Assembly (NCBI GenBank): GCA_001599295.1
Contig: BCGN01000007.1
Span: 1,105,791-1,169,790, forward strand
Source of the DNA: Sporopachydermia quercuum
Taxonomy: Eukaryota
Direction: 5' to 3'
DNA length: 64,000 nucleotides
The translations under genes were made by a program, and so were the position numbers. Below, in pieces: positions 22,223 through 63,600 of the stretch (position 1 is its first letter; every line of letters starts with the position of its first letter). The notes below the pieces were generated by a model that was not told where the DNA came from, searched no databases, and saw only the letters and a list, made by a program, of their open reading frames with translations.

Positions 22223-23698
22223 ATGCTAGGCAGATTCCGAACAGTACCAGTAAAGCAATTGAGCTTGAGGCAACTCGATAAAGTGGGGCAAGCAAGGCGA
22301 TGCATTGCTGGAAACCATGTTGGTCTCAGATACTATTCAGATGCTAACCAATGTCCTCAAATTGAGCTTTTGAACTATTCTGATCATTCTATTGAGGTTC
22401 AATTGAAAGATCCTAAAGATAATCTTCTAGCTTCCCAAGGAGTTAATGTTAAATTCAGAAACTTCTTTTTGAGAGATGCATCCNTAGATAAGGATTCCGT
22501 TGATCCAAGCTCTGGTCAGAAATACTTCTCTTCGGCTCAAATCCCTTTGAATGTTAGGCCTTGCTCTGTGCAAGTGATCTCTGGTGAAGGAAATGAAGCT
22601 GATAGTTTAGAGGTTTTGTGGGCACCTAACGAATTTGATAAGAAAGTGAAAAAATCGGTTTATCCATTCTCATTTCTAAAGGCGTACTCAAGCTTAAGGA
22701 ACAGAAGGTCTCTGCGATATCTAGAGAAGCCTGTGATCAAATGGGATAAAAAATTGATTGAAAACACAGTTGCTAGAATCTCATACAATGACTATATGAC
22801 TGATAGCGCTGCACTGTTGGAAGCTTTACAATCTCTTCACTACTATGGTCTTGCATTTATCACCGATATGCCTGTACAGGCTCTCAATAGTGATGCATCC
22901 GAATTAGAATCTCCAATTCTAGTTGAATCACTAGCTAAAAGAGTAGGTAATGTTAAAGAAACATTCTATGGTGTTTCATGGGATGTGAGATCTGTCCCTA
23001 ACGCGAAAAATATTGCTTATACCTCAGTATACTTACCNCTTCANATGGACTTACTCTATTATGAATCACCACCAGGATTGCAATTTTTGCATTGTGTGAA
23101 GAATGAAGCTACTGGTGGAGAATCAGTATGGGCTGATTCTTTTAATGCTGTTAGTAAGATCTCTGATGAAGATCCTGAAGCATATAAAGCTCTATGTGCT
23201 GTCCCAATCACGTACCACTACGATAATGATGGACAGCACTACTATCAGTCTCGCCCTTTGATCGTTGAAGATATATATGGCACTAGGGACGCTAAAGGAA
23301 GACTACCAATCAAAGTAGTGAACTATTCTCCACCATTCCAAGGGCCATTTGACTTTGCTGTTACTACACCTAACTATCGAATTGAATCTGAAAAGACATC
23401 ACCAGGTTTAACCACTGTCTCTGAACACGATAGTCTTCCTAGTGAAGAAAAGTTCAATGCTTTTCATCGTGGTTTAAGGCGATTTGAAGAATTGATCAAT
23501 GATGAAAGCAATCAATTAAAGGCATCATTAGAAGACAACACATGTGTTATTTTCATGAACCGTAGAACTTTGCATTGTAGAAAAGAGTTTGATGCTGATA
23601 GTGGCGTTAGATGGTTAAGAGGTACCTACAGTGACATTGATACTTTTTATTCCAAGTTGAGGGTTTTGGAGAAGAAGTATCAACGGTTGCGTACGTGA
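22223..23698 (+). CDS. AIM17: Mitochondrial Fe(II)/2-oxoglutarate dioxygenase, TauD/gamma-butyrobetaine hydroxylase family (Aim17-like), 491 aa
   Basis: FLRDA, ETFYG.SWDV, NIAYT, L(P)L(H)MDLLYYESPPGLQFLH, NRRTLHCR and RWLRG motifs; presequence-like N-terminus; adjacent to SPO11 as in S. cerevisiae. Confidence 0.82.
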   Translation: MLGRFRTVPVKQLSLRQLDKVGQARRCIAGNHVGLRYYSDANQCPQIELLNYSDHSIEVQLKDPKDNLLASQGVNVKFRNFFLRDASXDKDSVDPSSGQKYFSSAQIPLNVRPCSVQVISGEGNEADSLEVLWAPNEFDKKVKKSVYPFSFLKAYSSLRNRRSLRYLEKPVIKWDKKLIENTVARISYNDYMTDSAALLEALQSLHYYGLAFITDMPVQALNSDASELESPILVESLAKRVGNVKETFYGVSWDVRSVPNAKNIAYTSVYLXLXMDLLYYESPPGLQFLHCVKNEATGGESVWADSFNAVSKISDEDPEAYKALCAVPITYHYDNDGQHYYQSRPLIVEDIYGTRDAKGRLPIKVVNYSPPFQGPFDFAVTTPNYRIESEKTSPGLTTVSEHDSLPSEEKFNAFHRGLRRFEELINDESNQLKASLEDNTCVIFMNRRTLHCRKEFDADSGVRWLRGTYSDIDTFYSKLRVLEKKYQRLRT

Positions 23699-29161: not shown

Positions 29162-30286
29162 TTAATCGGTGAACTTGAAACTTCCACTTGCCATTGTAAT
29201 GGATCCTCCACGATAGGAGCCTTTCTTCATCTTATTCTTGGCCTTAGTAAAGCCTTTACCTCGGGTTTGCATTAACTTATCATTGGCCACTTCACCCCAA
29301 TTTCCAGCAGCTCCTTTATATGTATTATCTTTGACTACTTCACTAGCAAAAACAACTTTCTCACGTTCAATTCTGGAAAAATGTTTTCTCTTTTTACTAG
29401 AACTTTCATTACCAGGTTCTGGTGATGTAGATGTGTTATCAGAGGTATCACCGTAGGATCGTTTCAATGATTTAGATTTTGCTTCTGTTGAATTGGATTC
29501 GGATTTACTGGATTTTGTTTTGGGATTTGAGTCAGAATCAGAGTCAGAGTCAGAGTCAGAGCCAGATGTTGAATCAGAGTCAGAGCCAGATGTTGAATCA
29601 GAGTCAGAGCCAGAGTCGGAATCAGAGCTCGAGTCGGAACTGGAGGAATCAGAAGAGCTTGAGCTGGAGCCAGATTCGGAGTCAGATTCGGAGTCAGATT
29701 CGGAGTCAGATGAACTGGAGTCCGCTTTTTTCCCTTCTTTCTTTAGTGTAACAGCTTTTGATTTTGGCTTTTTCGTCTCAGGTTCAGATTCATGTTCAGA
29801 ATCTGAGGAGTCGGAATCAGAATCGGATTCAGAGTCCGACGAATCGGAACCCGAAGAATTAGAATCAGAATCAGAATCGGAATTGGAATCAGACTTTTTA
29901 CTTGCTTTATTGCTTTGTTCCTTCTTCTTATCATCTTTCTCATTTGTCTTTTTATCCTCGTCTTCGCCACTGTCACTGTCGCTATCACTGTCGCTTGAGC
30001 TAGAACCACTATTGCTGTCGCTGTCGGTATCACTTGAGCTATCACTATCATTTTCTTCACCTTTCTTCAGATCCTTAACAGTTTTGTTTTCCTTCCACAT
30101 ATGATAGATTCCTTCCAAAGGAAACAAATCATTTCCCATATCTCCAACTTCTTCATCATATTTCTCAACTTCCTTCTTCAATGCTTTATATGCTTTTGGA
30201 TAGCTTCTTTGTAAGAAGTCCAATACATATGGAGCAAGCTCTTGCTTGCTTGCTAATGCTGTATAATCAATCTTAGATTCAACCAT
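29162..30286 (-). CDS. SRP40: Nucleolar Ser-rich protein Srp40 (Nopp140 homolog), 374 aa
   Basis: LisH-like N-terminus; Ser/Asp repeat tracts; C-terminal HFSRI...RGKGFTKAKNKMKKGSYRGGSI motif. Confidence 0.95.
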   Translation of the reverse strand: MVESKIDYTALASKQELAPYVLDFLQRSYPKAYKALKKEVEKYDEEVGDMGNDLFPLEGIYHMWKENKTVKDLKKGEENDSDSSSDTDSDSNSGSSSSDSDSDSDSGEDEDKKTNEKDDKKKEQSNKASKKSDSNSDSDSDSNSSGSDSSDSESDSDSDSSDSEHESEPETKKPKSKAVTLKKEGKKADSSSSDSESDSESDSESGSSSSSSDSSSSDSSSDSDSGSDSDSTSGSDSDSTSGSDSDSDSDSDSNPKTKSSKSESNSTEAKSKSLKRSYGDTSDNTSTSPEPGNESSSKKRKHFSRIEREKVVFASEVVKDNTYKGAAGNWGEVANDKLMQTRGKGFTKAKNKMKKGSYRGGSITMASGSFKFTD

Positions 30287-32169: not shown

Positions 32170-33424
32170 ATGGGTCAACCACATTCAATTGAGCGATTAG
32201 AGCAAATCAGCGTAAGTAAATGCATGAACACATTATTGATGGTACCACATTTTACTTGAACTGTTGTATATCAACTTTCATCCCAACCTTGTAAAAGACC
32301 TCATACTAACTATCATCATACAGGCTCAATTGACTCCTAATCCTACTTCTAGTGAATCGCCAGTGGCTTTCACTGGAGGATGGGTCAAACTGAAGGTATG
32401 TGAATAAAGCTGAAGTAATATAGTAAGAGAAATATGTTTTACAACTGTAAATATGGAAGCCCTTCAACTGACGAAAACTAACGATTGAAGCTCATTAAAA
32501 TAGAAAAACTGACTAGAAACGTAAGTTGCAACAAGTGATTATATAATACTATAGATCGTACACTCTATTTCCAGGTACCTTTGTTTGCAACGAAATCTCT
32601 TATACTAACTATCAATACAGACAAATCGGTTCACATTTGAACTGCCATCACCGGACCAAGTAGCTGGGCTTCCTGTCACATCTTCATTAAGCATTCGATA
32701 TAGAACACCAGATGGGCAAACTATCACCAGATCATATACTCCAGTGAACAATTTACATGATAAAGGATTTATTCAGTTGATCGTCAAATGGTACATTCGT
32801 GGTCTGATGTCTACCTATTTATTTTCTAGACGAGTGGGCGATTATGTTGAGTTTTTCGGTCCTAAGAAGAAGTATCCATGGAAAGCAAATGCCTTAAAGG
32901 AAGTTGCATTATTAGGCGCTGGAACGGGTATCGCTCCANTATACCAACTGATTGAGGGTATATTATCAAATCATGATGATAAAACCAAAATTTCATTGTA
33001 TTATGGTAATGTATGTATTTTTGTTGGCTGATATGACAGATAACTATTGATGCATTTATTGTCGATCTTGATTTTTTGAGCTTCATTACTTCATATACTA
33101 ACAGTACCCTTCTAGCTGTCTGAAGATGACATTCTACTGTCTGAGAGTTTAGACCAACTAGCTTCTGTTTTTCCTGATCAATTCTCAGTGACATATTTCA
33201 TTGATAGACCCAAGAACAAAGAAAGCTGGACTCATGAGGTAGGATTCATTACTAAAAGCTATCTGAAGAATCATCTATTTAGCCCTAGCATTGGAAATCA
33301 AGGGCTTATCTTTGTATGTGGCCCTGGACCATTCCAAGAGGCATTCTTGGGAGATGGTACCAACGAGAAGCCTGGTATTCTGTATGAATTGGGTTATTCT
33401 GACGATCAAATATATGAATTCTAA
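32170..33424 (+). CDS. NADH-cytochrome b5 reductase (Mcr1-like), 5 exons (32170-32211, 32324-32395, 32491-32520, 32621-33010, 33116-33424), 280 aa
   Basis: TNRFTFELP, RSYTP (FAD), GLMS, GAGTGIAP, YGN|LSEDDILL, CGP and terminal YEF. Four phase-0 introns with ACTAAC branch points. Confidence 0.88.
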
Positions 33425-33684: not shown

Positions 33685-35748
33685 TTATTTATCAGAATTG
33701 TCTTCCTTTTCTAATTCATTCAGAAAGAAAGTCTCGTGTGATTCTAAGCTTGATTGAACGTGTAGTTTGAAATTAATAATAAATTCAATCATACTTTGAA
33801 CTTCACGATGCATTGCCTCTCTGACCGATTTTAGATTTCGTTCAAGCTTATTATACTCCATAGTTACTGTTTGATACCTTTGTTCAATGCTCATGTTGCT
33901 TTTCTGGAGATCTTTACTCATTTTACTTAGTTCTCTCTCCAAACGTTCAATCTCAGCGTTGGATGATGATAAATCAGCGCTAGTTGTTTCGTATAATTCT
34001 TCGTAGGAAAGCTTTTCGCTATTCAGCTTAGCTTCCAGTGCTTCAACTCTTTCCTTCTTGTCAATGAAAGACTCATTCATCAAATCTAGCGTTTCCTGAA
34101 GTTTGATTGAATCATCTTGTAGTCTATGAACAACATTTGCAACTTCATTTCTAATATTCTGTAGTTTAATTCGGAAATCCCGGGTTAAGTCTTTTCCTTG
34201 TAAGAGTTGATCAGGCTTTAGTCCCAGTTTATCTTCAGATAACAAGTTGTCCATCGTCACTTCAAAGTTGGTATCATTTTCACCACTGAATCGTGAAATC
34301 GCTGACCGAATTTTATATATTTGAGTGTTATACTTATCTATGTGTTGGATTAGAGAACTAGCAAGCTCAGACACCTCGTTTTCCTTTCCTTGCATTCGCT
34401 TTTCCAGTTCAAAATGTTTCTCATCAATAGATTCTTTGATTTTGAGTAATCGTTCATTTTCATTGTTTATTCTGTCAATTTCGGCAGGTTGTAAGCCCTG
34501 CTGCGCTATCTGCTTATTCAACTCTTCTTTCTCTTTTTCATATTTGATTTGTAGCTGCTTGATATTCTGGATTTCTTCTTCAATACTGCGGATGGTATTT
34601 TCTGTTTTATTCTTCTTGGACTCCAGTAGTTCAGTAAAAGCTTGGAATTTTTCAATATCACCTTCCAAAGTCTTTGCTTTCTTTTCTGCGGCCTCTAAGA
34701 ATGACGAGTATTTAGAGATTTCCCTTAGTTCATTCTCCAACGCAGTGTTTTCTTCGTTCAATTCCTTTATCATATCATTCAGGGGCCCATTGATTTGATT
34801 CAGTTCTTGTTCCAACTCTTCTAAATACAGCTGTGACGATCCTTCTTCGTCCGCCATGTAGCTGGCGTATGAGTTAATGAAGTACTGGGTTATTAGTTGG
34901 TTGGTTCTAGTAGATTCTGTTTCATCGTCCAGTTCATAATCATGGTTATCGAACTTATCCATAGTAGTATTGAGTTCCACCAGCCAGTGCAACACACCTA
35001 GAAATATATGCCAGTTTTGGCCGCCCACTGCGGAGATTTGGGACTTGTTTATGCTTTCTAAGTAAGGATAACAAATAGATTTCAAAATGAAAAACACTTC
35101 GAAATCAATTGATCGCGTAAACTTATAGCCAGGGTCTAGTTTCCTGTAGAGCCATTGAAAGATGATGACAAAATCCTTTTGCGTGGGACTTCTAAGCGTT
35201 TTCTGGTTTAAAGGATACTTCATTTCTAACTCAAATCGATGAGACTGTAAAAATGCCATAATTTCTTCTTGCATCATCTGTTGATATTGCTTATCTCTTA
35301 GTGGTCTTGGATCCTTAGTAAGAGTGCTGCCAGAACCAATGATGGTTCCAACACCTATTCCCATATTTATATTTCCATTGCCCATCCCAAACGACGACGG
35401 TCGCTTCTTTGCTGATGAAGGAGCATAACTATTTCTGAAACTACTTCTTTTGGTAAGATTGGCCCCACTGTTATTCTCTTTATCTATGTCCATTGACATA
35501 TTACCTCCAGAGCTATTTNTAGGTATTCCCATAGACTTCTGAGGTAGAACAGATAGCCTGCTGTTGGTGCTAAACACTGGGGCTCCAACTGTGCTCTGTC
35601 TCATGTTGACAGCTAAAGATCGACTGGAGTTTGAAGCCGAGCGCTTGAGGGATGATGTTGGCTGTGGGATATGAGATGTGTTTTGGTCTAATGGTTGCAA
35701 TGGATTTGACGCTTGAGAGCGTCTGTAGTTAAATAAATCCTGTGACAT
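33685..35748 (-). CDS. NDC80: Kinetochore protein Ndc80/Hec1, 687 aa
   Basis: KDPRPLRDK, PTQKDF, YPYLESINKSQISAVGGQNW CH domain followed by a long coiled coil. Confidence 0.97.
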   Translation of the reverse strand: MSQDLFNYRRSQASNPLQPLDQNTSHIPQPTSSLKRSASNSSRSLAVNMRQSTVGAPVFSTNSRLSVLPQKSMGIPXNSSGGNMSMDIDKENNSGANLTKRSSFRNSYAPSSAKKRPSSFGMGNGNINMGIGVGTIIGSGSTLTKDPRPLRDKQYQQMMQEEIMAFLQSHRFELEMKYPLNQKTLRSPTQKDFVIIFQWLYRKLDPGYKFTRSIDFEVFFILKSICYPYLESINKSQISAVGGQNWHIFLGVLHWLVELNTTMDKFDNHDYELDDETESTRTNQLITQYFINSYASYMADEEGSSQLYLEELEQELNQINGPLNDMIKELNEENTALENELREISKYSSFLEAAEKKAKTLEGDIEKFQAFTELLESKKNKTENTIRSIEEEIQNIKQLQIKYEKEKEELNKQIAQQGLQPAEIDRINNENERLLKIKESIDEKHFELEKRMQGKENEVSELASSLIQHIDKYNTQIYKIRSAISRFSGENDTNFEVTMDNLLSEDKLGLKPDQLLQGKDLTRDFRIKLQNIRNEVANVVHRLQDDSIKLQETLDLMNESFIDKKERVEALEAKLNSEKLSYEELYETTSADLSSSNAEIERLERELSKMSKDLQKSNMSIEQRYQTVTMEYNKLERNLKSVREAMHREVQSMIEFIINFKLHVQSSLESHETFFLNELEKEDNSDK

Positions 35749-38781: not shown

Positions 38782-41700
38782 CTATACAATAACCCCTGAA
38801 GCTATAGACCTACCATCCTTCCGAAGAACTATACGGCCTAAATCCTTATTCTTATACGCAGACTCCAAAGGAATCGAACCATCAACGATTTGAATCTCAA
38901 CTAATGCACAGCTTCCACTACTCAAATGGCGAGCGTTCTTCTTCAATTCGTTTCCTGTTTGTTTATCCAATGTTGCTTTAATCTTAGAAATCTTGCCTGG
39001 TAAATTAACACGACCTCTATGAACCATAACAGGAGTTCCTACTAATAAAGGTCTTTTAATAGTAAACACTAGCAATTGACAGTCGAATTTTTGAACAGAT
39101 TCAACTACATTATCAGCAGGACATAAAATATCACCAGCTGCCAGTTCAACAAGGTCTTCGCTGGTTAAACCTTTCAAATCAAGCACTGGGTTCTCTCCTG
39201 ACACGGCTATTTCGCATTTCTTATCGTCAATAGTGATATCTGTTACTACAGCTTCTTTCCCACTAGGGGCAATCACGACATCATCACCGGTTTTCACTAC
39301 ACCGCAGTTTACCCTTCCCTGGACAACTAGAGTATTTCTATGTTCTTTCATGTACACATCAAACACATCTAACCTGAATGGTACATCATATTGACGATTA
39401 ATGGCCTTAATGCTTTCTAAGTTATGAAGAAGAGTTCCTCCTGTATACCATTCGCCTATATGAGTATCAGGATCAGGTTCATTTACCACGTTGAATCCCG
39501 TTAAGCCTGATACTGGTATGAAAGAAACATCACTGAGAGAGAAACCTGAAGCAACTAAGAAATCGCCTAATTTCTGTTTAATTTCTTGATACCTTTCTTG
39601 AGGAGCTGCTACAACGTCTATTTTGTTGACAGCAACAACAAGTTTCTGGATGCCTAGAGATTTCACAAGAACCGTGTGTTCTTTCGTTTGCCCGTCGAGA
39701 TCGAATCCTGATTCAAAAGCATTAGGAGAAGCGTCAATGACTAGCAGAGCAACGTCAGCTTGACTGACGCCAGCAATCATATTAGGCACGAAATCCTGAT
39801 GCCCAGGAGCATCAACAATGGTGAATTTTGTTGTTTTAGTTTCGAAAGAGCTCATACAAATGTCAACTGTGACACCGCTGTAAGATTTGTTAGTATTGTA
39901 GTATTGATCGTAAATAAGGTTCAGTAGTGCATCATAGTGCATATAGAATATGTAAATTAATACATAGACTTGCATTATCATCCATCCGCCCTCATTAATA
40001 TTCGTCAAATGGTACTTACTGAGCACGCTCATCAGCAGTTTGATCCAAAACCCAAGCAAGAGCAAAACTGCCCTTTCCAATGTTCTGGCTTTCTTTCCTC
40101 AGCTGTGCTATTGTCTTCTCGTCAACTGCACCAACATCGTATAATAATCTACCCATCATAGTAGACTTCCCAGCATCAACGTGACCAATAACAACAAAGG
40201 ATATAGTGTTTTTTTCAGCTTTACGGCTGATTTCCTTCTTCACATCAATCTTTGTGTTAGAAACATTGCCTTTCTTCTTCCGCTGGTTCCCAGTGCTAGT
40301 AGAGTTAATATCAAGCTTCTTGATTCCATCAGCTACATTGCTATTAGCATTGAAAGCAGCTTGCTGAGCCTCAAGCACTTTGGCATCTGGCGATGGATTG
40401 GAAAATCCTGCTTTTGCCTTCTGGCTTGTTTTGGACACTGGATATAAAAGACAGGATATGTTAGAAGATTGTAAATAGTTGGGATGTTCAATGGTACGAT
40501 TAATGGCTGCAGGGATATTCGATATGAGGAAAACAGAGATTGATGAGTTTGGGCTTATGGATTGCAGTTTTGGATTGGTGAATAATGTGTTATTGCACAG
40601 TTCCTCAAGCGATTTTTGTTTGTCTTTGATTACCTGATGAGGGAAACGAGTTTCAGTAGAAGTAGCTACAGAAGCTTTAGCTCCCTTAGTGCCATTAGAG
40701 CCAGCAGGGCTAGCGTCATCGAAATCAGAGGAATGTTCAGTGTGTTGTTTCCGCTTATATTTCAATTTCGCCAGACTTCGTTTCGTAGAAGTAGCAGAGT
40801 CTAATGATTCGACTGTGCTTGATGAGCTTGATTGTCTGAAAAGGCTTAGCCTGCTTTGAGAAATGGGGTTAGGATTGGTCCCTGAGGAGTCAGTGGAAGA
40901 GCGTGGCAGATCACGTGATCTGGTGATCTTTCCAGTCAAGAAAGTGTCCTCNCTGGAGCTGTCTCCGCTACTAGCATTACTATAACTATGGCTCTGGTTC
41001 TGGTTCTTATGCTTAGTTCTGAAAGCTGCTAGTCTATTTGATGGTTTCTCGGCTTTTCCTAACTCCCGGCTTCCTTTCTTTGCCAACAGCAGCTGTTCCA
41101 GTTTAGAAAGAGGTTTCTGCCGTTGATTCATTGACTCATCAGTACCAATTGACGTCTGGTGTTCTTGTAGCTCCTGCTGTTCATTATCTTTCTGTAGTAT
41201 ATCATCACCATGAGCCCCAGTTTTCTTTTTCTCTCTTAATAGCGAAAGCTTTGAAGTCAATTTCGACTTTGAAGCTATTTCTGAACTTGGAACATCTTCA
41301 CCACCTAAATAAGCCCGAAAACCCAAACCCTTTTAGAATGTGTTCCTAATAAGCAACGAAGAAGAGATAAAATAGAATAAGAATAAATGAGAAAAGGATT
41401 AAAGGCATCAACAGGATATGCTGTTGTATGCATGATTCAAAGAAATATAGAAAGGTGATTTACGCAAATCATACATACCAGTAGTTGGCTTGAGTTTTAG
41501 CTTATGTTTAGTCTTTAACACTTGGAACGACTTATTCACATCAAAGTACTGTAACCATAGAACGTCTCTCAGCTCATCGTCGGAAATTGAATGTTTATAA
41601 TCGTTTAATTTTGCCTTCAAGCTTGGCAAAAGCTTGTTTATTTCTTCTTCATCTTCAGGGGTTATTTCTATAGTTGTTAGTACTGACCGTCCAATGNAAC

Positions 41701-42019
41701 GAGACACTAGAGATGTTGATGCAGAATGTGACATGCTGCAAATCACTCAACAGTCTAATAGTGAATATTTGTTGCTTATCTTATTATCCAACGGCACTTA
41801 CCGTTCTCGTCGCTATAGTGATCATCGCTATAGTATTCCAAGTCTAAATAATGTAAATAGTTAGCAAAGGCAAATTAGACACTATACATCTCTAACTATT
41901 TACTAACAATGATGCTCATTGCAATAGCTTTCATCTTCGTATACTCAGCTATTTCTATCCTTATTTCACCAGCTCACTTTTGCATACATACCATCATCGT
42001 CATAATCAAGTTTACCCAT
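38782..42019 (-). CDS. HBS1: HBS1/SKI7 translational GTPase. Exons 42019-41992, 41843-41802, 41667-41479, then 41304-40020 (long, about 879 aa) or 40332-40020 (short, about 555 aa), and 39877-38782
   Basis: Hbs1 N-domain (DDELRDVLWLQYFDVNKS); GHVDAGKST, DAPGH, NKID and SGLTG; EF-Tu-like domains II and III; Ski7-like FSNPSPD..V.EAQ in the long exon; all junctions GT-AG and in frame. Confidence 0.93.
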
Positions 42020-45848: not shown

Positions 45849-48800
45849 ATGACCAGTATCAACAACAATGATACCTCTGCCACTTCTGCAACTTCTGGGA
45901 ACTCTGGTAGCTCTTCTAGCAGTGACCTGAGCCAAAAGATAGCTACAATTCTCACTGATGAATCAAATGCTGTCAATACGACTTTTGCTGCTCAGATAAT
46001 GAAAATATGTCAATCCCAACAAGATGTGACCTCGTTTATCAATGTTGCAAAGGTCCTAGGAAAGTTCTCTAATGACAAGCTGAGCGCTGTATATAAGTTG
46101 GTGAAAGATAGTAGTGGAGGTTCAGGGATAAAAAAAGCTGTTGCAACAATTGAGACTGCGACTCCGACTGCTATTCCTACTGGAAACGATGATTCTACTG
46201 ACAGATATACTAAGAAAGCACTATCAACAGGGAAAAGCTCACTTTTAGATTATGATGAGCAAATCGAAGATGACGAGCTTGCGTCAACTCCAGTGATCAA
46301 GTTCAAACGGCAAAACAAATTCTTTGCTAAAACAGCGGCATCATTAACTTCAGGATCAGGAAAGAAAAGAGTGAAACTGGATTTTGACGATTCTTCTGAA
46401 CCAGAAAGTGACGTATCCTCTACAATTAATAGTCAATATATTCCTACAACTCTTCCTGCTACTAGCAGTAATGCTGACAAGCCGGGTTTATCTCAAGCGG
46501 CTTCTAAAAGACTTCAAGAGATCCAACAGAAAAGAAGGCAGAAAAACCAGGATTTCGCTGCTACTTCTACTTCAACCGCTACTTCTACTAAATCTATTTC
46601 CAGAGTGTCATCTTCTGCTAATCCAACTTCTCTGTATCATGACGGCGACACCAACACCTACGCCGACACCGACCCCTATTATCCTGGTGATATACCTGAG
46701 GAAGACACGGAAACTGCCATAGCATTGGAACGCGATTGGTACGGGGCCGATGAAACCACTGGCTCTCATGTCCCCGGTGACGATTCTCACAACCCGTTCA
46801 CGGACTCCACCATATATAACACTACAGAAGAGTCCAATTTAGAGAGAAAGTTTCAGAAGAGGATCTCTCTGGCCCGTAGAGAGAAAATACGTGATAACGA
46901 GCTGTGGGAAGACAACCAGTTACGCCAATCTGGTGTTGCAGGCACCAGAAGAGCCAATATTGACGTGAACGAGGACTCTAAAGACTCCCGGATAATCCTT
47001 ACTGTGCACCACTTGGTACCGCCTTTTCTCGATGGCAGGAACACATTCACGACTCAGAAAGACCCCGTGCCAGCGTTTCGCGATAGCCAGAGCGATCTGG
47101 CGGTGATAGCAAGGAAAGGAAGTGCGCTGGTGAGAGAACGGAAGCAGCAGAGAGAAATCCAGCGCCAAGCAAGACAGGCAGCTTCGCTAGAGGGCACTTC
47201 CCTGGGAAACATGCTAGGCGTGGAAGACAAGGTGAAAAAGGAAGTTTTACAACACGAGAGAGAAAACAACAGCGGAAAAGAAGCTGGCGATAGCAAATTT
47301 GCTGATCACTTCAAGAATAGCAGCAATTCCACCAGATTGGCCCTTATAAACCAACGGAGATCCTTGCCTGCGTTTGCTGTGCGCGAACAGCTTCTCACAG
47401 TAATAAAAGATAACCAGGTGACTATCGTCATAGGCGAAACTGGTTCAGGAAAGACCACCCAATTGACTCAATATCTCTACGAACAAGGCTACGGCAAACA
47501 GGGCATGATAGGCTGCACCCAGCCGAGAAGAGTAGCTGCTATGAGTGTGGCTAAACGGGTCAGCGAGGAAATGGACGTTAAACTGGGTTCTACGGTTGGC
47601 TATACAATTAGATTTGAAGATATTACCAGCAAAGACACCGTGATCAAGTATATGACCGATGGCGTGTTGCTTCGGGAATCTCTTATAGATAAAGACCTTG
47701 ATAAATACTCTTGTATTATTATGGATGAAGCTCACGAGCGAGCATTAAATACCGATGTACTATTGGCACTGTTTAAACGTATATTGACGAGAAGACGGGA
47801 TCTGAAGCTGATAGTAACGTCTGCTACTATGAATGCAGACAGATTCTCGGAGTATTTTGGCACGGCGCCGCAGTTTACTATCCCTGGGCGTACGTTCCCA
47901 GTTGACGTTTTGTTTGCCAAATCTCCCGTAGAGGATTATGTGGCGGCAGCTGTGAAACAGGTTCTCACGATACATTTCCAGGGATCACCGGGAGACATTT
48001 TAGTGTTTATGACTGGCCAGGAGGATATCGAGGTCACGTGCGAGGTAATAGCGGAAAAGATGTCAACTTTCGAAGATACTCCCAAACTGGAAATTCTGCC
48101 TATTTACTCGCAAATGCCCGCAGATTTGCAAGCGAAAATCTTTGATAAGGCAGAACCCGGTGTCCGGAAAGTGGTGGTGGCTACAAACATTGCCGAAACG
48201 TCTTTAACCCTGGACNNCGTAATGTATGTTGTAGACTGTGGCTATAGCAAGCTGAAGGTGTATAATCCGAAGATGGGAATGGACACTTTACAGGTTGTCC
48301 CAATATCTTTGGCTAATGCCAATCAACGGTCTGGCCGGGCTGGGAGGACGGGAAAAGGGACAGCGTATCGTCTGTACACGGAACGGGCATCTCGTGACGA
48401 AATGTACCCTCAGACAATTCCCGAGATCCAACGGACAAATTTAAGCAATACACTGCTACTGCTGAAATCACTAGGAATCAATGATTTGCTCCAGTTTGAT
48501 ATAATGGACCCGCCGCCGGAAGATACTATGACAGCAAGTTTGTATGATCTCTGGGCAATTGGAGCATTGGATAACTTTGGGCAGCTTACGCCGTTAGGCA
48601 GGAAAATGTCTACTTTCCCTATGGAACCAACCCTATCTAAGCTTTTGATAGAATCGACAAAATATGGCTGTTCAGAGGAAATGGTGATCATTGTTTCTAT
48701 GTTATCGGTACCAAATGTCTTTTATAGACCAAAGGAAAGAGAAGAGGAGTCTGATGCGGCAAGAGAGAAGTTTTTCGTACCGGAATCTGATCATTTGACG

Positions 48801-49472
48801 CTTCTACATGTTTACACACAATGGAGAGCCAATAGGTATTCAGGAGTATGGTGTAGTAGGCATTTCCTGCATAATAAATCTTTGCGGAGAGCAAAAGAGA
48901 TCAAAGAACAGCTGGAATCTATTATGGTGAAGCAACGGTTTCCCATTAAATCCTGTGGCTCCGATTGGGACGTCATAAGGAAATGTATATGCACTGGATA
49001 CTTTTCTCAAGCGGCCAAAGTGAAAGGATTTGGAGAATATTCAAGTCTGCGTACAGGGATGGAGATGAAGTTGCATCCTACCAGTGCTTTATATGGGTTA
49101 GGCTATTTGCCTGATTATGTAGTGTATCATGAATTGATTCTCACCACTAAGGAATATATGAGCGTGGTTACTGCTGTTGATGCCCGCTGGCTGGGAGATT
49201 TCGGCGGAGTGTTCTATGAAGTGAAAGAGAAGGAATTTATTGCAGGAGAAAGCGAGGCTGTTGTGAAGCAGACGTTTTCACGCAAAGCTGAGCTGGAAGC
49301 AAAGATAGCTGCTGATCGGGAGACAATGGAGCTGCGGAAATCGGTTGACAAGGTTAAAAAAAACAATAAGGATAAATCTATATCAAACAGTGTTTCGGTA
49401 GGTTATTTGACGGGTTCCAATGGCAGAGGAATTCGGAATAAACGTGGAGGCCGAGTCCGAAGAGCGTTCTGA
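45849..49472 (+). CDS. PRP16: Spliceosomal DEAH-box helicase Prp16, 1207 aa
   Basis: [16 protein letters not shown] and QRSGRAGR; Prp16-specific ERDWY, PPFLDGR and KGSALVRE. Confidence 0.97.
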
Positions 49473-54614: not shown

Positions 54615-57395
54615 TTACATGATAGAAACTCTCCTACTTCTAGTTACCCGTTTACTGCTCTTTCTAACCGCTGCTTCCAAACCGTTCATTTTCAAGTCGT
54701 TTATTTCATCGTCGTCGAAGTCAAAGATACTTGCAGTGTTAGAAACATCTTTCAACACTTCGATTTGGCTGGATTTCCGTTTTCTTGCTGCTCTGGTCGA
54801 AATATTGCTTAGTTGTTTGATAGGAGGAAACTCAGGATCTACACTTGAAGAGTCGGACTTGTTGATAGTGTTGCTAGTATTGCTGGCATTACTGGTATCT
54901 CTAGTTACCGGATCATCGTCCTGTTGCTTCTGCTGATCACTTTCATTATCGTTATCATTATCGTTATAAACTTTCATGCTTTCTCCAGCATTTCTTCTGC
55001 TTATTCTTCTGTTTCTAGATGATTTTCTTCTAGTGATTAAGCTGTTTCTCTCTTCTAATTGGTTATAGTTTGGTTCATTTGGCTCTGAATTGTTTTCCGT
55101 TGGCTGTATAGGCGCGTTTTCTTGTTTTATAGGACTATTATTACTGTCATTACCGTTGCTGTTGCTGTTATTGTCAGAATTAGTAGGAATAGAAGTAGAA
55201 CTAGCATTACTAGTATGAGCACTACTATCTGTTCTAAAGCTATCCCTTGTGCTTCTTCTACTGTTTCTAGAGCTACTGCCCCCCCTAATATGCTTATCTT
55301 CTGGCTCTTCTTCCTTTACGACTTCCCCGTTTGCCCCTCCTGCCCCACTAGTCCTGTGTCCTGCTTTACTCTTACCCCGTTTCCTTTCCTCGTCTATCAG
55401 TATTAACTCTATTTCATCATCCGCATCGCAGATCGCGGGGGCCAAAACTGCCGTCGGTCTCCGCAGCTTCGTATTAAGACTCTGTTCCTTATAGTTCACT
55501 GGTTTTCTTTGCCTTCGAATCCGGCCTGTAAATGTGTTACTGCTGTTACTATTACCGTTATTGCTACTACCATTTGCATCATGCTCTTCATTATGTAGAC
55601 TGTTGATACTATGAGGCATTTTCTCAGTAGTCAAGGCAATAGACAATGCTTTGTTTCGTGAGCTTTTAGGTGGAGGAGGTTTTCTGGGTTGAGGTGGCTG
55701 GGAGGCGGTAGGAGAAGCGTTGATGGCGTTTAAATGGGTAGTTGAATGGATATTTAGCTTGTTGTTCGCATGGCTATAGTTGATGCATCTATCAGAAAGA
55801 GCTTTTCTAGCTGAATGGCCTAACTCGGAGTCAGTATTGTTGGTACTATTGCTACTGTTGATACTCACTGTACTGTTTTCCTTACTGTACTTTCTCCCCT
55901 TTCTATCCTTATGATTCTCCGGCTTGTTCATATTATTACCCCTATCGTTGATTCCTTTTCCCTCGCCTATGCATTCATTTTCCTTGTTGTTAAACACGGT
56001 GGAGTTCCTTCTGGCATGTTTTGAGGTTGTTTTGTTCTTCTTGGTTGTTTCTCTGTTGCTTGGTGGCAGAATGTGTATTTCCTGCCGAGTGTCGATAGGG
56101 CTGATGATAGCTAATTGGATAGGAATATCAGGAGAGTCGGGAGACTTTGTAGAAGTATCGGAAAGAGAAATAACGGAATTAATGTTATTTAGTGATTTGT
56201 TACCTTCTTTGTTTCCTTTTTTGTTTTCATCTTCATTTATTTCCTCTTCTTCTTCTATTATAACGTCTGTTGTAGATAGAGACAGTGAGTCTTGGTCGTA
56301 GATAGAGCTGTTGATAGGAATAGGAACAGAAATTACAGAAGAGTTAGAGTTAATGTTATTATCTTCATTATCGGTTGTCGTTTCCCTTAATTCATAGTGA
56401 GAACTTTCATTCCTGGACCTATTTTCATTGTTGTCAGTTTGAACATCACCTTCACTACTATTATTACCATTAGTATGCTCAGAATCTGTGGTTTTCTCAG
56501 CTATAGCTTTTTCAGTGATATCAACGCACATTTGGTATTCATTTTCCCTGTTGCCATTGCTGCAAGAATCACCATTATAGCTGCCGTCAGCATTGTCGCT
56601 ATGACCCGCATCGTTATAGCTGTTCCCACTATTTCTGTTGATTACGGTGTGGCTTATAATCTCAAGCTCCTCTTGCTGATTCGCACTTTCATTCTCAGCC
56701 TCATTTGCCATCTCGCTTTCCGTGGGAACAATGACAATTGACTTCCTTCTGCTTGATCTTCTCCTTTTAGCAATCTTATGNCACTTTTCATCTTCCGGAG
56801 AAAAAGGTTTTCCTTTGGCCATTTTATTCTCATATAATCTAGTTTCTATACTAAGATGAGAGCTAGAGATGTTCTCTCTAGTTAATTCATTGCTTGGAGG
56901 GTCCTGCGAACAGTCTTTTGCCGCTGCATTACTTGGTGATGGTCCTAGCTCTAAGCTATCCGCAAGAGCAGACCTTTGGAGCAACAAAGGTATTCCTGTA
57001 GATGGCGCACTCTTAATAGCTTTTCTTTCTTGTAATATTTCTCTAGATGTTCCGTTCCAGCTGTTTAGCCCTTCGTTTTCTCTCAATTCGGCAAACACAT
57101 TGCTTATCTCTTCGAACTTTCCAACTACAAATTCCTGTAGGTAATTTAGGTGAGCTTCAAGCTTCTGTTGCTGATGCTCCAATGCTTCATTTTTCTCACT
57201 TCGCAGTTGCAGGTTTTCCCTTATCAACTGCGAAACTCTTTCTTCCAATGAGGATATCTTAGACATCATGGAAGAGTTCGCTTTGGCAAATGCTCTGTTC
57301 TGTAGAATCAGTTTCCTTCTTGCGAGGTCCAAATGTTCTATTTCCAGTGTCTTCTGGCCTGGGATCAGTTTATTATCGATGGCTAATTTGGCCAT
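54615..57395 (-). CDS. SGO1: Shugoshin, about 926 aa
   Basis: N-terminal coiled coil RRKLILQNRAFAKANSSMMSKISSLE; basic SGO motif RRQRKPVNYKEQSLNTKLRR; convergent with CDC21 as in S. cerevisiae; first in-frame ATG at 57395. Confidence 0.9.
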   Translation of the reverse strand: MAKLAIDNKLIPGQKTLEIEHLDLARRKLILQNRAFAKANSSMMSKISSLEERVSQLIRENLQLRSEKNEALEHQQQKLEAHLNYLQEFVVGKFEEISNVFAELRENEGLNSWNGTSREILQERKAIKSAPSTGIPLLLQRSALADSLELGPSPSNAAAKDCSQDPPSNELTRENISSSHLSIETRLYENKMAKGKPFSPEDEKXHKIAKRRRSSRRKSIVIVPTESEMANEAENESANQQEELEIISHTVINRNSGNSYNDAGHSDNADGSYNGDSCSNGNRENEYQMCVDITEKAIAEKTTDSEHTNGNNSSEGDVQTDNNENRSRNESSHYELRETTTDNEDNNINSNSSVISVPIPINSSIYDQDSLSLSTTDVIIEEEEEINEDENKKGNKEGNKSLNNINSVISLSDTSTKSPDSPDIPIQLAIISPIDTRQEIHILPPSNRETTKKNKTTSKHARRNSTVFNNKENECIGEGKGINDRGNNMNKPENHKDRKGRKYSKENSTVSINSSNSTNNTDSELGHSARKALSDRCINYSHANNKLNIHSTTHLNAINASPTASQPPQPRKPPPPKSSRNKALSIALTTEKMPHSINSLHNEEHDANGSSNNGNSNSSNTFTGRIRRQRKPVNYKEQSLNTKLRRPTAVLAPAICDADDEIELILIDEERKRGKSKAGHRTSGAGGANGEVVKEEEPEDKHIRGGSSSRNSRRSTRDSFRTDSSAHTSNASSTSIPTNSDNNSNSNGNDSNNSPIKQENAPIQPTENNSEPNEPNYNQLEERNSLITRRKSSRNRRISRRNAGESMKVYNDNDNDNESDQQKQQDDDPVTRDTSNASNTSNTINKSDSSSVDPEFPPIKQLSNISTRAARKRKSSQIEVLKDVSNTASIFDFDDDEINDLKMNGLEAAVRKSSKRVTRSRRVSIM

Positions 57396-60672: not shown

Positions 60673-63600
60673 TCAAACAGCCTCCTTCGCAGCATTCTCA
60701 ACATTTGCTATGAACTTTTCCAATACTTGGCTATCAATAGATCTCACTGCATTGAAAACTGACTCAATCTCTGCTTTATACTGCTTCATTCCATTGCTTT
60801 GCTTGTCGGGATAATAGGGTGCATAAGTAGTTTCAACATCAGGCATTGAACTAATCGATTGAATAATTGCATTAGCGAATGGTTCATCTATAGATAGTAC
60901 TCCTGTTCANTTGAGTTAGTGATTGTTCGTTTTGAAGGAGAAAAGGTTAAATAGAAAGAAGAAAGCCAGCAAAGAAAAGAGGGTCGTCAGTGAATAATAT
61001 GTACTTCTAGCACTTTAAGACGTACTATGTATGATATAATGCGACGATGATGNTTGTTGCTTGCAGTTTAATAATAATAGCTATAATTATGAAACCCCGC
61101 AGTTTCTGTTCTTTCTATATTAATCAATGCTTTTATTGTCGTTATTGTCAACATTGATGATATTGTCGAATTGATTAATTAGCTGTTACATTTCTGTTGC
61201 TAGTTCAAGTAACAATAATTAATCAACTACAACTAATGCATACCGAGGTATGAACAGAAATTTGAAATCGACAGTAGTTGTACTTTTCGCACTACTACCA
61301 GAAATAGCAACATCAGTTAATGACAACACTAACTCCGCGCACGAACATTATTTTAATATACCATTGAAATAGTTGAATTTCGCATTGACATTAATTAACA
61401 TGGTATTCACACTTTCTCACCTATTTTGTCCCAAATGATTCAAACAAAATGCTTACCGTCGATATATAAGTTAACTAGTGTCTTATACAGATAGCTTGTT
61501 CTCACGTTATTCTTCTCAATGTTTTCCCTATTTATATTCCATTAGCACTTATTCACCGAATCATCAACCACCAATCATTTACCAAATCATCAACCAAAAG
61601 CTTGCCACTTACCTATCATACTCCAATACTCTTAGCCAGATAACTTCTCGTAGTGACCTTTTAACTTCCTCTCCATCACGAATATATTCCAACACTGTAA
61701 CGCCAATGCTATACAGCTTATCCATACTATCATTAAAAAGTCTTTGCAGTGTAATTAAGTCAATCAATTCTACAAGCACCAAGTCCTCCTTTTTATAGAC
61801 AATTTGGTTATACACATATTTCAAAATTGTAGCTGACAACGGTGCTTTTTTTCCTTCCTCAAGCTCAGTAGCTCTTGTTAGAATGCTCTGTTTCAAATCG
61901 TTGCCATTGATACTCTGAATAAGCGAAAGATATTGCTGTTCACCTCTCAGCAAAGGTAGTTTATGTTGAATGTACTTCATTTCAATTCTGCTGCCGCTGT
62001 TGGTGCTAGCGGTGTTACTATTATTTTTGTTGCTACTAGCAAGTAATCCAAGTTTCGCCAATGACAGTTGCAGAATCCTGTTATCCAATCCTTGCTTATT
62101 GTTCTTCCCACTCTGGAACAACCCTTTGATTCCATTTTCATATTCTCCTGCCTCTAGTCGATACTCGATGATCCATCTGATAGGTCCCACTACATCAGTG
62201 TATTTGGCCAGAAGCTCATTCCGCAACGCCTTTTCTTCAGGGAACTCCATCAGCAGATCATACAATTTCCCCTGGTTGATGAAATAGACACAGTACTGTT
62301 CAAACAGTGGTTTCCCATACAGTTTAAACAGATTACTCATAGTGCTTTGAAAATGTTGATGCTCCTCTGAATTAAATCCAAAGTTTGCTATAATGGACTC
62401 TCTCTTGATGTTGGAGATGGAAACGATAGCCGGCAGAATAGCAAACTCCTCAGCTAGAAGGAAAGCTATACTATGGTTGTTGGTAGTTGTAAGAAGTTCC
62501 AGCCAGTCATTTTGAGCTGTTTTGATCGTTTTCCAATGGCTGATAGCTCCATCTCCAGATCTATTGCTAGTACTAGTGAAATCATCACTAATCAAACGTG
62601 TCTTTTCACAAGAGACTTTCAGCATAAATCGAACAAGTTCTGGCAGCTTCTTAACCAGATTTTCATCTACTGANGTGCTACTTATTCGTTTTCTTACCCC
62701 TTCATATAGTCTTCCCAGCTGTTTGAACAGATCTATACTACTAATCCATGTTTCGGTATTCGCAACAAACTGTTCTTCGTACTCAGGAAACACTTGAGGA
62801 TAGAAAAAGCTTCTGAAGTCTCCAATAGCTTTGCTCAAACACTCAGCCAGTTTCAGCCCAATAGAAATATTGTCATTGGTCTTATTATACTCTCCTATCT
62901 CTCTATCATCTGTTTTCCTGTCTAGTACTAGTTTTAGCATATCAACAATGAACAGCATGCAATCGCTAAGCCGGAATTCAATCAGATCATCAATGGACAC
63001 TCTGCTGGACTCGTTTATATAGGAAAAAATATTGCTCAGATCGTTGTCGGCTTGGAATAAGGATAGAAGCTCCTTCAGGACAGTGACTTGTTCTAAAGCT
63101 GTAATAGCGGTCAGTCGGGAAGATGCATCTAGTTGGAACAGCAGTCCGGTGCTCTTAAGGAAATAAACCAGTCGCCACAGGGCTACTTCCTTAAACAAGG
63201 CAATATCGTCAATAGATTGCAATAATGGTGCGAAATAGATCCAGGAGCCATCGGAGATAGAAGTGATGATTTGCAGAGTTGCAGTGGTGAGCTCCGCAGG
63301 CGATTCTATCATCAGGGGGATGTTATCAAAGCGTAGGATGTTTCCTGGCTCCATTCCGTAGATTATAGCTTGACTGATTTTGCTTTTAATAAGAGAGAGA
63401 TGAGATGAGTTTGCCGGAGATGTAGTGATAGTGGCTCTATCTGTCTTGGTTGTAGAAGTACTTGTTGTAGATCTGGTGGAATCAGTTGGGTTAGTGAACC
63501 GTTCAATCTCCATGATACCGAAGCCCTGAACAAATAGCAGAACAGTGGAATTAGTAGAGCACATGCCTATAACACTAGTACCACCATTAACACTACCATT

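What the first reader, a model, noticed from the sequence alone, without database searches (positions are those of the whole stretch)
40333..41478. One gene, two mRNA-surveillance factors: alternative 3' splice sites toggle Hbs1 versus Ski7
Seen: the intron donor GTATGT at 41478 (phase 1) can join two acceptors in frame. The proximal one is ATTTAG|GTGGT (41307-41305) with only a weak branch (TTCTAAA). The distal one is TGCTAAT-AGCAATGTAG|CTGAT (40349-40333), embedded in coding sequence with the branch-to-AG spacing typical of this window. The 972-nt (324-aa) difference holds repeated SKLSLLR/SKLEQLLLAKK/NRLAAFR/SRLSLFR helices and FSNPSPDAKVLEAQ, and the distal acceptor lies just after that last motif. 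Established: these motifs resemble the Ski-complex- and exosome-binding motifs of Ski7, and pre-duplication fungi such as Lachancea kluyveri make Hbs1 and Ski7 from one gene by alternative 3' splice-site use. Inference: both isoforms are made here and the short one dominates.
Basis: partly seen in the sequence, partly recalled or inferred. Interest (0 to 1): 0.8.

Follow-up and report, generated by a model that had tools for sequence, protein, structure and literature searches.

The report
Yeast SKI7/HBS1 gene, distal acceptor misplaced

Summary
The minus-strand gene 42019-38782 has five exons. It encodes an HBS1_N domain and an eEF1A-like GTPase.

Being in frame means little: 30 AGs between the donor and the P-loop are in frame and open.

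Related loci from metagenomes show where the Hbs1 acceptor is conserved. It is a phase-1 branch box plus AG lying 26-41 nt upstream of the PSPDD (patch-4-like) motif, in 17 of 35 usable loci against 7 of 205 control windows. The window has exactly this: TTCTAAC 40466-40460, a pyrimidine tract, and CAG 40440-40438.

A profile of the Ski7-specific region hits solved yeast Ski7 and human HBS1L-SKI7 chains. For the window alone, only the patch-4 segment is significant.

The phenomenon is in print (Marshall 2013; Hurtig 2020). No RNA data or whole genome could be examined. Verdict: real, ordinary and already known, with one coordinate corrected.

The parts
41992..42019 (-). Exon 1 (ATG at 42019, 28 nt), the acidic N-terminus
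   Evidence: followed by GTATGT at 41991.
41844..41991 (-). Intron 1 (148 nt): GTATGT, TGCTAAC box at 41866-41860, TTTAG
41802..41843 (-). Exon 2 (42 nt)
   Evidence: the reading frame continues with the acidic N-terminus.
41668..41801 (-). Intron 2 (134 nt): GTAAGT, TACTAAC box at 41682-41676, TATAG
41479..41667 (-). Exon 3 (189 nt) encoding the HBS1 N-terminal domain, common to both isoforms
   Evidence: Pfam PF08938 HBS1_N, E 8.5e-13.
41305..41478 (-). Intron 3, short version (174 nt): GTATGT donor in phase 1, weak TTCTAAA box, proximal acceptor TTTAG at 41306-41305
   Evidence: Retaining the intron runs into a stop after 23 codons.
40438..41304 (-). Alternative, Ski7-specific coding block (867 nt, 289 codons). 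It is exon in the long form and intron in the short form.
   Evidence: 0 stops in 288 codons against 7-33 in the other five frames. Two SKL..L motifs, with 18 of 20000 shuffles reaching that count. BLASTP E 4e-4 to the same region of P0126.
41225..41254 (-). SKLSLLREKK, the first S1-like (Ski7 helix-1-like) motif
41078..41107 (-). SKLEQLLLAK, the second S1-like motif; it aligns to SKLQQLALAR of P0126
   Evidence: hhalign E 0.15.
40520..40540 (-). ISVFLIS, a candidate for the SKI7-like (exosome-docking) motif
   Evidence: The regex [IVLM]S.F[LIW] is found in 33 of 46 relatives. The window has 1, and 557 of 20000 shuffles reach that. Weak evidence.
40460..40466 (-). TTCTAAC, the branch box for the conserved distal acceptor. 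It is embedded in codons Ser-Ser-Asn.
   Evidence: It is positionally equivalent to the TACTAAC (Thr-Asn) boxes of L001-L004.
40438..40440 (-). CAG of the conserved distal (Hbs1) acceptor. The exon starts at 40437, phase 1, 41 nt before the Pro codon of PSPD.
40352..40405 (-). FSNPSPDAKVLEAQQAAF, the patch-4-like motif (Marshall's S3 by inference; Ski7 helix 7)
   Evidence: hhalign E 6.9e-7 against a profile of 16 relatives built without the window. The same motif aligns to yeast Ski7 and human HBS1L-SKI7 chains.
40333..40349 (-). In frame but not conserved.
   Evidence: No counterpart in L001-L004. It lies in a lineage-specific NANSNV insertion.
40020..40437 (-). Common part of exon 4: patch 4, linker, and the start of the G domain with the P-loop GHVDAGKS
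   Evidence: Pfam GTP_EFTU, E 1.9e-9.
39878..40019 (-). Intron 4 (142 nt): GTAAGT, TACTAAC box at 39895-39889, ACAG
38782..39877 (-). Exon 5: the rest of the GTPase domain plus domains II and III, with the stop at 38784-38782
   Evidence: Pfam GTP_EFTU 4.7e-30, GTP-eEF1A_C 2.9e-21, GTP_EFTU_D2 9.8e-8.

Best explanation
This is the single, unduplicated SKI7/HBS1 gene of an ascomycete yeast. After the exon that encodes the HBS1 N-terminal domain, one GTATGT donor (41478, phase 1) can be joined to either of two acceptors.

The proximal TTTAG (exon start 41304) keeps an 867-nt block in the mRNA and gives an 879-aa Ski7-like protein. Its extra 289 residues carry short helical SKLxxL-type motifs and a hydrophobic SxF motif. 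In yeast Ski7 such motifs tether the Ski2-Ski3-Ski8 complex and the exosome.

The distal acceptor most likely uses the TTCTAAC box at 40466-40460 and the CAG at 40440-40438 (exon start 40437). That join gives a 590-aa Hbs1 consisting of the N-domain, a short linker that still holds the PSPD patch-4 motif, and an intact GTPase. Hbs1 delivers Dom34 to stalled ribosomes.

Shown here: the gene model, the open frames, the domains, and the conserved place and phase of the distal acceptor. Inferred: that both joins occur in vivo, and that the two products divide the Ski7 and Hbs1 functions as they do in Lachancea kluyveri.
For: Gene model and domains:
- Searches give HBS1_N at 8.5e-13, GTP_EFTU at 4.7e-30, and eEF1A-like domains II and III.
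- The G3 motif keeps its His (DAPGH in the translation). Marshall 2013 reports this for pre-duplication genes, in contrast to post-duplication Ski7.

The alternative block is coding:
- It has 0 stops in 288 codons, against 7-33 in the other five frames. The frame opens only 10 codons upstream of the proximal acceptor.

Conserved distal acceptor:
- L001-L004 have TACTAAC + 10-16 nt + TAG in phase 1, 26-35 nt before PSPDD.
- Of 35 usable, de-duplicated loci, 17 have a CTRAY box plus a phase-1 AG in the 45-nt window just upstream of the motif. Six control windows further upstream have 7 of 205.
- The window's site is at -41 nt with 22-nt spacing, the same as L014 and L025.
- Six annotated short forms with HBS1_N keep the PSPDD motif. 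One is Candida dubliniensis P0166; Marshall 2013 confirmed this acceptor by RT-PCR for the clade of four Candida species that includes it.
- The paper places the alternatively spliced intron 'just upstream of motif S3' in Lachancea, Aspergillus and Saitoella.

Link to Ski7:
- A profile of the region from the window plus 16 loci has as its five best PDB matches human HBS1L isoform 2 (9g8m_E, 2.7e-6) and yeast Ski7 (8qcf_L 1.5e-5, 8qca_E 4.3e-5, 5jea_K 6.9e-4, 5g06_P 5.8e-3).
- The window's patch-4 segment matches a profile built without it at E 6.9e-7.
- SKL..L occurs in 45 of 46 relatives and twice in the window; 18 of 20000 shuffles reach that.
- BLASTP to P0126 over the S1 region gives E 4e-4.
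Against: No RNA evidence of any kind could be examined, so use of either acceptor is a prediction.

The window's 288-aa block on its own is barely recognisable:
- phmmer against PDB found 0 hits at E up to 10.
- phmmer against 1.84 billion representatives found only a spurious repeat protein.
- A profile of 196 homologous segments scored it at -12.1 bits, while shuffles reached 7.8.
- A budding-yeast-only profile scored it at -1.1 bits, with 1 of 1000 shuffles at or above that.
- hhalign of the block alone gave E 0.15.

The motif regexes were written after I had seen the window's motifs, so their shuffle counts are optimistic.

The 22-nt box-to-AG spacing at 40437 is longer than the 8-16 nt of most candidate introns in the window. 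The proximal acceptor has no CTAAC box. The loci counted are related to each other, so 17 of 35 is not a probability. 19 of the 36 loci lack the feature under my filter. For seven of these with TTTGCAG directly before the motif, I infer an acceptor at -2 nt; this was not counted formally. Whether a separate SKI7 gene exists elsewhere in the genome could not be checked.
Confidence: 0.72

Rival explanations
1. One reading: the Hbs1 isoform is made by joining the donor to the TAG at 40334-40333 (TGCTAAT box, exon start 40332). This removes 324 residues, including the PSPD patch-4 motif.
For: The join is in frame and open. The 10-nt box-to-AG spacing fits the 8-16 nt typical of the window's candidate introns. 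Marshall 2013 states that motif S3 is not conserved in post-duplication HBS1, so Hbs1 function should not need it.
Against: The box is CTAAT, not CTAAC, and the 14 nt before the AG are only 43% pyrimidine. It has no counterpart in L001-L004. Only 3 of 36 loci have any box plus phase-1 AG downstream of the motif. In L008 and L032 the frame breaks after the motif, so I read those as a separate downstream intron. The six annotated short forms aligned keep the motif. The site sits in a lineage-specific NANSNV insertion. In-frame AGs are common: 30 of them.
Confidence: 0.1
2. Candida-type expression: the long Ski7-like protein is not made by the proximal acceptor. It comes instead from a transcript that starts inside intron 3 and uses the ATG at 41131 (MNQRQKPLSKLEQ...). 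The upstream promoter gives only the distal-spliced Hbs1 mRNA.
For: Marshall 2013 shows this arrangement by 5'RACE in Candida albicans, where motif S1 begins with Met. Locus L002 has M-T-T-K-P-P-SKLAQL just after an in-frame stop. In the window a Met lies 7 codons before PLSKLEQLLLAKK, and the proximal acceptor lacks a CTAAC box.
Against: The frame stays open for 58 codons upstream of that Met, back to the proximal acceptor and only 10 codons beyond it. That stretch holds another S1-like motif, SKLSLLREKK. Other frames of the block carry 7-33 stops per 287 codons, so an open stretch of that length is unlikely if it were non-coding. This estimate is my own and was not computed formally.
Confidence: 0.1
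3. No alternative splicing: only the proximal acceptor is used, and one 879-aa protein does both jobs. The embedded box and CAG are chance.
For: No RNA data. Boxes plus in-frame AGs do occur by chance in this exon.
Against: The box and AG sit at the place and phase conserved in 17 of 35 related loci, against 7 of 205 controls. In L. kluyveri the long form does not complement hbs1 deletion (Marshall 2013).
Confidence: 0.06

Closest known systems
Alternatively spliced SKI7/HBS1 gene of Lachancea kluyveri and other ascomycetes (Marshall et al. 2013, PLoS Genet 9:e1003376; Hurtig et al. 2020, RNA 26:1464)
   Same: A single gene. The HBS1_N exon is followed by one donor and two in-frame 3' splice sites. 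The proximal site gives a long Ski7-like protein and the distal site gives Hbs1. The distal site lies just upstream of the S3/patch-4 motif. The GTPase keeps its catalytic His.
   Different: This gene has three further constitutive introns: two that split the N-terminal coding region and one in the G domain. The distal branch box is TTCTAAC with 22-nt spacing, not TACTAAC with 10-16 nt as in L001-L004. The Ski7-specific block is very diverged. Usage of the sites is unverified here.
Saccharomyces cerevisiae Ski7 (PDB 8qca, 8qcb, 8qcf, 5jea, 5g06; Keidel et al. 2023, Mol Cell 83:4093, passages read)
   Same: N-terminal SKLxxL-type helices align to Ski7 helix 1 (residues 1-12, which bind Ski3). 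The PSPD motif aligns to helix 7 (residues 212-225, which contact the Ski2 helicase) in the profile alignment.
   Different: Yeast Ski7 is a separate, intron-less gene without the HBS1_N domain, and its GTPase has lost the catalytic His (Marshall 2013). The window's own block gives no significant pairwise hit to it.
Human HBS1L isoform 3 / SKI7 (Kalisiak et al. 2017, NAR 45:2068, search listing and abstract only; PDB 9g8m_E)
   Same: One gene yields both Hbs1 and the exosome-SKI adaptor. The PSPDD-type motif and a hydrophobic PSxFA motif are shared in the profile alignment.
   Different: The human SKI7 isoform ends in an alternative last exon and lacks the GTPase domain (Brunkard and Baker 2018, PMC6143672, sections read). 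Here the long form keeps the GTPase.
Candida albicans-clade SKI7/HBS1 (Marshall et al. 2013)
   Same: The same distal acceptor upstream of the PSPDD motif (L003 and L005 resemble P0166).
   Different: That clade has no proximal acceptor and uses an internal transcription start with Met at motif S1. The window has an open frame from a proximal acceptor.

Membership tests
Alternatively spliced fungal SKI7/HBS1 gene | One gene encoding an HBS1_N domain followed by an eEF1A-like translational GTPase | tested here: met
   Pfam HBS1_N 8.5e-13, GTP_EFTU 4.7e-30, GTP-eEF1A_C 2.9e-21, GTP_EFTU_D2 9.8e-8.
Alternatively spliced fungal SKI7/HBS1 gene | The intron after the HBS1_N exon has one donor and two in-frame 3' splice sites | tested here: met
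   Donor at 41478 in phase 1. The acceptors at 41304 and 40437 (and 40332) all read through. This is a sequence prediction only.
Alternatively spliced fungal SKI7/HBS1 gene | The distal 3' splice site lies just upstream of motif S3 (patch-4-like, PSPDD), in phase 1 | tested here: met
Met for the CAG at 40440-40438, which is 41 nt before the Pro codon. 17 of 35 related loci share this place and phase, against 7 of 205 controls.
Alternatively spliced fungal SKI7/HBS1 gene | [quoted passage not shown] | tested here: inconclusive
   For: SKL..L occurs twice (18 of 20000 shuffles reach that), and BLASTP to P0126 gives 4e-4. Against: whole-block searches and profiles are not significant.
Alternatively spliced fungal SKI7/HBS1 gene | Both junctions are present in mRNA and two proteins are made | not testable with these tools
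Alternatively spliced fungal SKI7/HBS1 gene | No separate SKI7 or HBS1 paralogue in the genome | not testable with these tools
   No genome is held. There is no second copy within the 64-kb window.
Ski7 (exosome-Ski complex adaptor) | Patch-4 / helix-7 motif (PSPDD-type) | tested here: met
   hhalign E 6.9e-7 against a profile built without the window. The motif aligns to yeast Ski7 and human HBS1L-SKI7 chains.
Ski7 (exosome-Ski complex adaptor) | Exosome-docking helices (SKI7-like RxxxFxxxL-type motif) | tested here: inconclusive
   Only ISVFLIS at 40540-40520. The regex is found in 33 of 46 relatives, and chance gives 557 of 20000. MAFFT aligned a different stretch to the PSxFA column.
Ski7 (exosome-Ski complex adaptor) | Binding to Ski3 and to the exosome cap | not tested
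   The partner proteins of this organism are not available, so no complex prediction was attempted.
Hbs1 (Dom34-delivering translational GTPase) | Intact G motifs, including the catalytic His of G3 | tested here: met
   GHVDAGKS and DAPGH are in the translation. The identification of G3 follows Marshall 2013.

The most novel reading that the evidence does not exclude
All three acceptors are used. Besides the long Ski7 form and the conserved Hbs1 form (exon start 40437), this lineage has gained a third acceptor (exon start 40332) in a lineage-specific NANSNV insertion. That acceptor would strip the Ski2-contacting patch-4 / helix-7 motif from part of the Hbs1 pool. This would be a splicing-level step towards the clean Ski7/Hbs1 separation that other lineages reached by gene duplication.
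Probability: 0.07. Interest if true: 0.4.

Novelty: already known. Interest (0 to 1): 0.15.

Why it matters
It matters little as a discovery. Alternative 3' splice-site use in SKI7/HBS1 has been shown experimentally in three ascomycete subphyla. It is reported as conserved in fungi, animals and plants, and as seen by RNA-seq in early-diverging budding yeasts.

The practical value is for annotation. The gene needs two isoform models (879 and 590 aa), and the short one should start its fourth exon at 40437, not 40332.

There is also a small general lesson. In relatives the conserved peptide P-x-T-N just before the patch-4 motif is the TACTAAC branch box read as codons. A stretch that looks like a conserved protein motif is, at least in part, a splicing signal.

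Tried and rejected
Searches and tests that found nothing or were not significant:
- phmmer of the 288-aa block against 1.84 billion representatives gave 1 hit at E 2.2e-5. It is a 1162-aa tandem-repeat protein, which I rejected as spurious.
- A profile of 196 homologous pre-motif segments scored the window's block at -12.1 bits, with shuffles up to 7.8. No support.
- A budding-yeast-type profile (46 segments) scored it at -1.1 bits, with 1 of 1000 shuffles at or above that. The scores sit at a floor and are not significant as scores.
- hhalign of the block alone against the 16-locus profile gave E 0.15.

Resources that were unavailable or empty:
- The whole genome is not held, so the absence of a separate SKI7 gene is untested. 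tblastn inside the window found no second copy.
- Marshall et al. 2018 (PNAS) is not held. Its motif definitions may bear on S1-S3 naming. Figure S1 of Marshall 2013 was not seen, so equating S3 with the PSPDD motif is my inference.
- There are no tRNAs and no Rfam families in the window.
- Earlier-findings look-ups returned nothing.

Taxon placement:
- The PRP16-like neighbour gave about 75% identity to Orbilia, Lipomyces and Dipodascopsis, and nothing closer among the 120 listed hits. The species and family stay unresolved.

Considered and not done:
- Complex prediction with exosome or Ski3 partners, because no partner sequences of this organism were available.
Full report
**What is there**

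On the minus strand an ATG at 42019 opens a five-exon gene that ends at the stop 38784-38782.
- Exons 1-3 (42019-41992, 41843-41802, 41667-41479; 259 nt in all) are separated by two short introns with GTATGT or GTAAGT donors and TGCTAAC or TACTAAC boxes.
- Exon 3 encodes an HBS1 N-terminal domain (Pfam PF08938, E 8.5e-13).
- Exon 4 ends at 40020. A 142-nt intron with a TACTAAC box splits the G domain.
- Exon 5 (39877-38782) carries the rest of an eEF1A-like GTPase (GTP_EFTU 4.7e-30, GTP-eEF1A_C 2.9e-21, domain 2 9.8e-8).
- The P-loop GHVDAGKS and the G3 motif DAPGH are intact.

**Checking the observation**

The donor GTATGT begins at 41478 and the intron is phase 1. Both joins are open to the stop (879 and 555 aa) and differ by 972 nt. 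The quoted peptides are all present.

An in-frame acceptor carries little weight here. The whole stretch is one open frame, so 30 AGs between the donor and the P-loop are in frame and open. Among them, three follow a CTAA[CT] box at splice-like spacing.
That is 22 nt to the AG, 79% pyrimidine, and exon start 40437.

**Which distal acceptor is the real one**

First, protein evidence. I aligned the long translation with homologues from two protein searches. Six annotated short forms that carry HBS1_N were in that alignment: five CTG-clade yeasts and one Aspergillus. All six keep the F-x-x-PSPDD-x-V-L-x-AQ motif. The homologous junction therefore lies upstream of that motif, not after it.

Second, DNA evidence. 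I fetched DNA of relatives from metagenome contigs: 292 pattern matches, 129 confirmed, and the best 80 kept. In the four best budding-yeast loci, L001-L004, the DNA just upstream of the motif reads TACTAAC, then 10-16 nt, then TAG, in phase 1, 26-35 nt before the Pro codon. The conserved peptide P-x-T-N of these proteins is the branch box read as Thr-Asn codons.

Third, a count with controls. I took the loci that have both a P-loop and a PSPDD-type motif within 900 nt and removed duplicates. That left 36 loci, of which 35 have enough upstream sequence.
- Ten further loci had a P-loop but no motif by my regex.
- The rest of the 80 lacked a regex P-loop or repeated another locus.
- 17 of the 35 have a CTRAY box followed by a phase-1 AG in the 45-nt window at -60 to -15.
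- Six equal windows further upstream have 0, 1, 5, 1, 0 and 0 hits, 7 of 205 in all.

The window's site is at -41 nt with 22-nt spacing, identical to L014 and L025.

Only 3 of 36 loci have a box plus phase-1 AG downstream of the motif. In L008 and L032 the frame breaks shortly after the motif, so I read those as the end of a separate downstream intron.

The loci are related to one another, so these counts describe conservation and are not probabilities. Seven of the loci without the feature have TTTGCAG directly before the motif. Together with the Aspergillus short form P0154, this suggests an acceptor at -2 nt in that lineage, which is again upstream of the motif.

This agrees with Marshall et al. 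2013 (Results and one Discussion section read). [quoted passage not shown] Equating S3 with the PSPDD motif is my inference, because their Figure S1 was not available to me.

**Is the long-form block Ski7-like?**

It is clearly coding. It has 0 stops in 288 codons against 7-33 in the other five frames. The frame opens only 10 codons upstream of the proximal acceptor. Intron retention runs into a stop after 23 codons.

Its similarity to Ski7 is at the level of short motifs.
- A profile of the region from the window plus 16 loci has as its five best PDB hits human HBS1L isoform 2 (9g8m_E, 2.7e-6) and yeast Ski7 (8qcf_L 1.5e-5, 8qca_E 4.3e-5, 5jea_K 6.9e-4, 5g06_P 5.8e-3). The sixth hit, at 0.061, is unrelated.
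- In those alignments the SKLAxLAxxR column matches the N-terminal helix of Ski7, and PSPDD matches residues around 212-229.
- Keidel et al. 2023 (passages read) assign Ski7 helix 1 (residues 1-12) to Ski3 binding and helix 7 (residues 212-225) to contact with the Ski2 helicase.

Testing the window alone gives a weaker picture.
- Its patch-4 segment matches a profile built without it at E 6.9e-7.
- The 288-aa block alone gives E 0.15 at PLSKLEQLLLAKKG.
- It has no PDB hit.
- It has only a spurious hit among 1.84 billion representatives.
- It scores no better than shuffles against a broad profile.
- In its favour, BLASTP to P0126 gives 4e-4 over the S1 region. SKL..L is present in 45 of 46 relatives and twice here, with 18 of 20000 shuffles reaching that. 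One [IVLM]S.F[LIW] is present in 33 of 46 relatives, with 557 of 20000 shuffles.
- I wrote those regexes after seeing the window, so they are optimistic.

**Mechanism**

The most likely mechanism is the published one.
- One donor is used with two branch-and-acceptor pairs about 870 nt apart.
- The proximal pair is weak (a TTCTAAA box only). It gives the long adaptor that links the Ski2-Ski3-Ski8 complex to the exosome.
- The distal pair is embedded in coding sequence. It gives Hbs1, which works with Dom34 on stalled ribosomes.
- With the corrected acceptor, the patch-4 motif is in both isoforms, as it is in the annotated short forms of other single-gene fungi.
- Nothing here bears on which isoform dominates.

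**Rivals**

- A Candida-type internal start at the ATG at 41131 in place of the proximal acceptor (0.10). This is weakened by the 58 open codons and a further S1-like motif upstream of that Met.
- No alternative splicing at all (0.06).

**Context and taxon**

No genome is held. The window contains no second copy of the gene. The neighbouring PRP16-like helicase is about 75% identical to those of Orbilia, Lipomyces and Dipodascopsis, and none of the 120 listed hits is closer. The best SKI7/HBS1 relatives are about 50% identical over the conserved part. The organism is therefore an intron-rich ascomycete yeast without a close relative in the collections searched. Hurtig et al. 2020 (passages read) state that they saw alternative SKI7/HBS1 3' splice sites by RNA-seq in early-diverging Saccharomycotina.

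**Verdict**

This is a real gene and a correct general idea, but it is already known. Interest is low.

Noticed in passing
L001:2990-3030, L002:3010-3045, L003:3085-3120, L004:2985-3020: In related yeast loci the conserved peptide P-x-T-N just before the patch-4 motif is encoded by the TACTAAC branch box (ACT AAC = Thr-Asn). What looks like a conserved protein motif is, at least in part, a splice signal under dual constraint. In the window the same place reads TCT AAC (Ser-Asn).
   Followed up: partly
window 45849-49472 (+): A 1207-aa ORF is a PRP16-like DEAH-box splicing helicase (Pfam DEAD, Helicase_C, HA2, OB_NTP_bind). It is about 75% identical over the helicase core to PRP16 of Orbilia, Lipomyces and Dipodascopsis. 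None of the 120 listed hits is closer.
   Followed up: partly
window, whole (one search list): The window is intron-rich for a yeast. There are 32 GTA[AT]GT...NNCTAAC...AG candidates, with TACTAAC the commonest box (11) and 8-16 nt from box to AG in most of the short ones. Several lie in clusters within single genes, e.g. 32212-33115 (+). Gene models were not built, so some candidates are chance.
   Followed up: no
window 827-4741, 6726-9362, 10810-11982, 14105-15655, 22223-23698, 29162-30286, 33685-35748, 54615-57395: Long ORFs with Pfam domains: GRAM+VASt, CorA, MMU163, protein kinase, TauD dioxygenase, SRP40_C, Ndc80/HEC and Shugoshin. These are ordinary fungal housekeeping genes. The ORF at 61609-63933 (774 aa) had no Pfam hit at E 1e-5.
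   Followed up: no
window 40950-40952 and 41697 region: The window holds 68 N bases. One falls in the Ski7-specific block and gives an X in the translation. One falls in intron 2.
   Followed up: no
related loci, window -195 to -150 nt before the PSPDD motif: 5 of 34 loci have a box plus phase-1 AG in this control window, more than in the other control windows (0-1 each). It is unexplained. It may be a lineage with a shifted acceptor, or chance.
   Followed up: no
window 40020-40025 / 39875-39877: The junction of exons 4 and 5 gives E-R-A-H-G-V-T where most relatives have E-R-x-R-G. Some relatives (P0134, P0160, P0166) also have His at this position, so it is a variant and not an error in the model.
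   Followed up: partly
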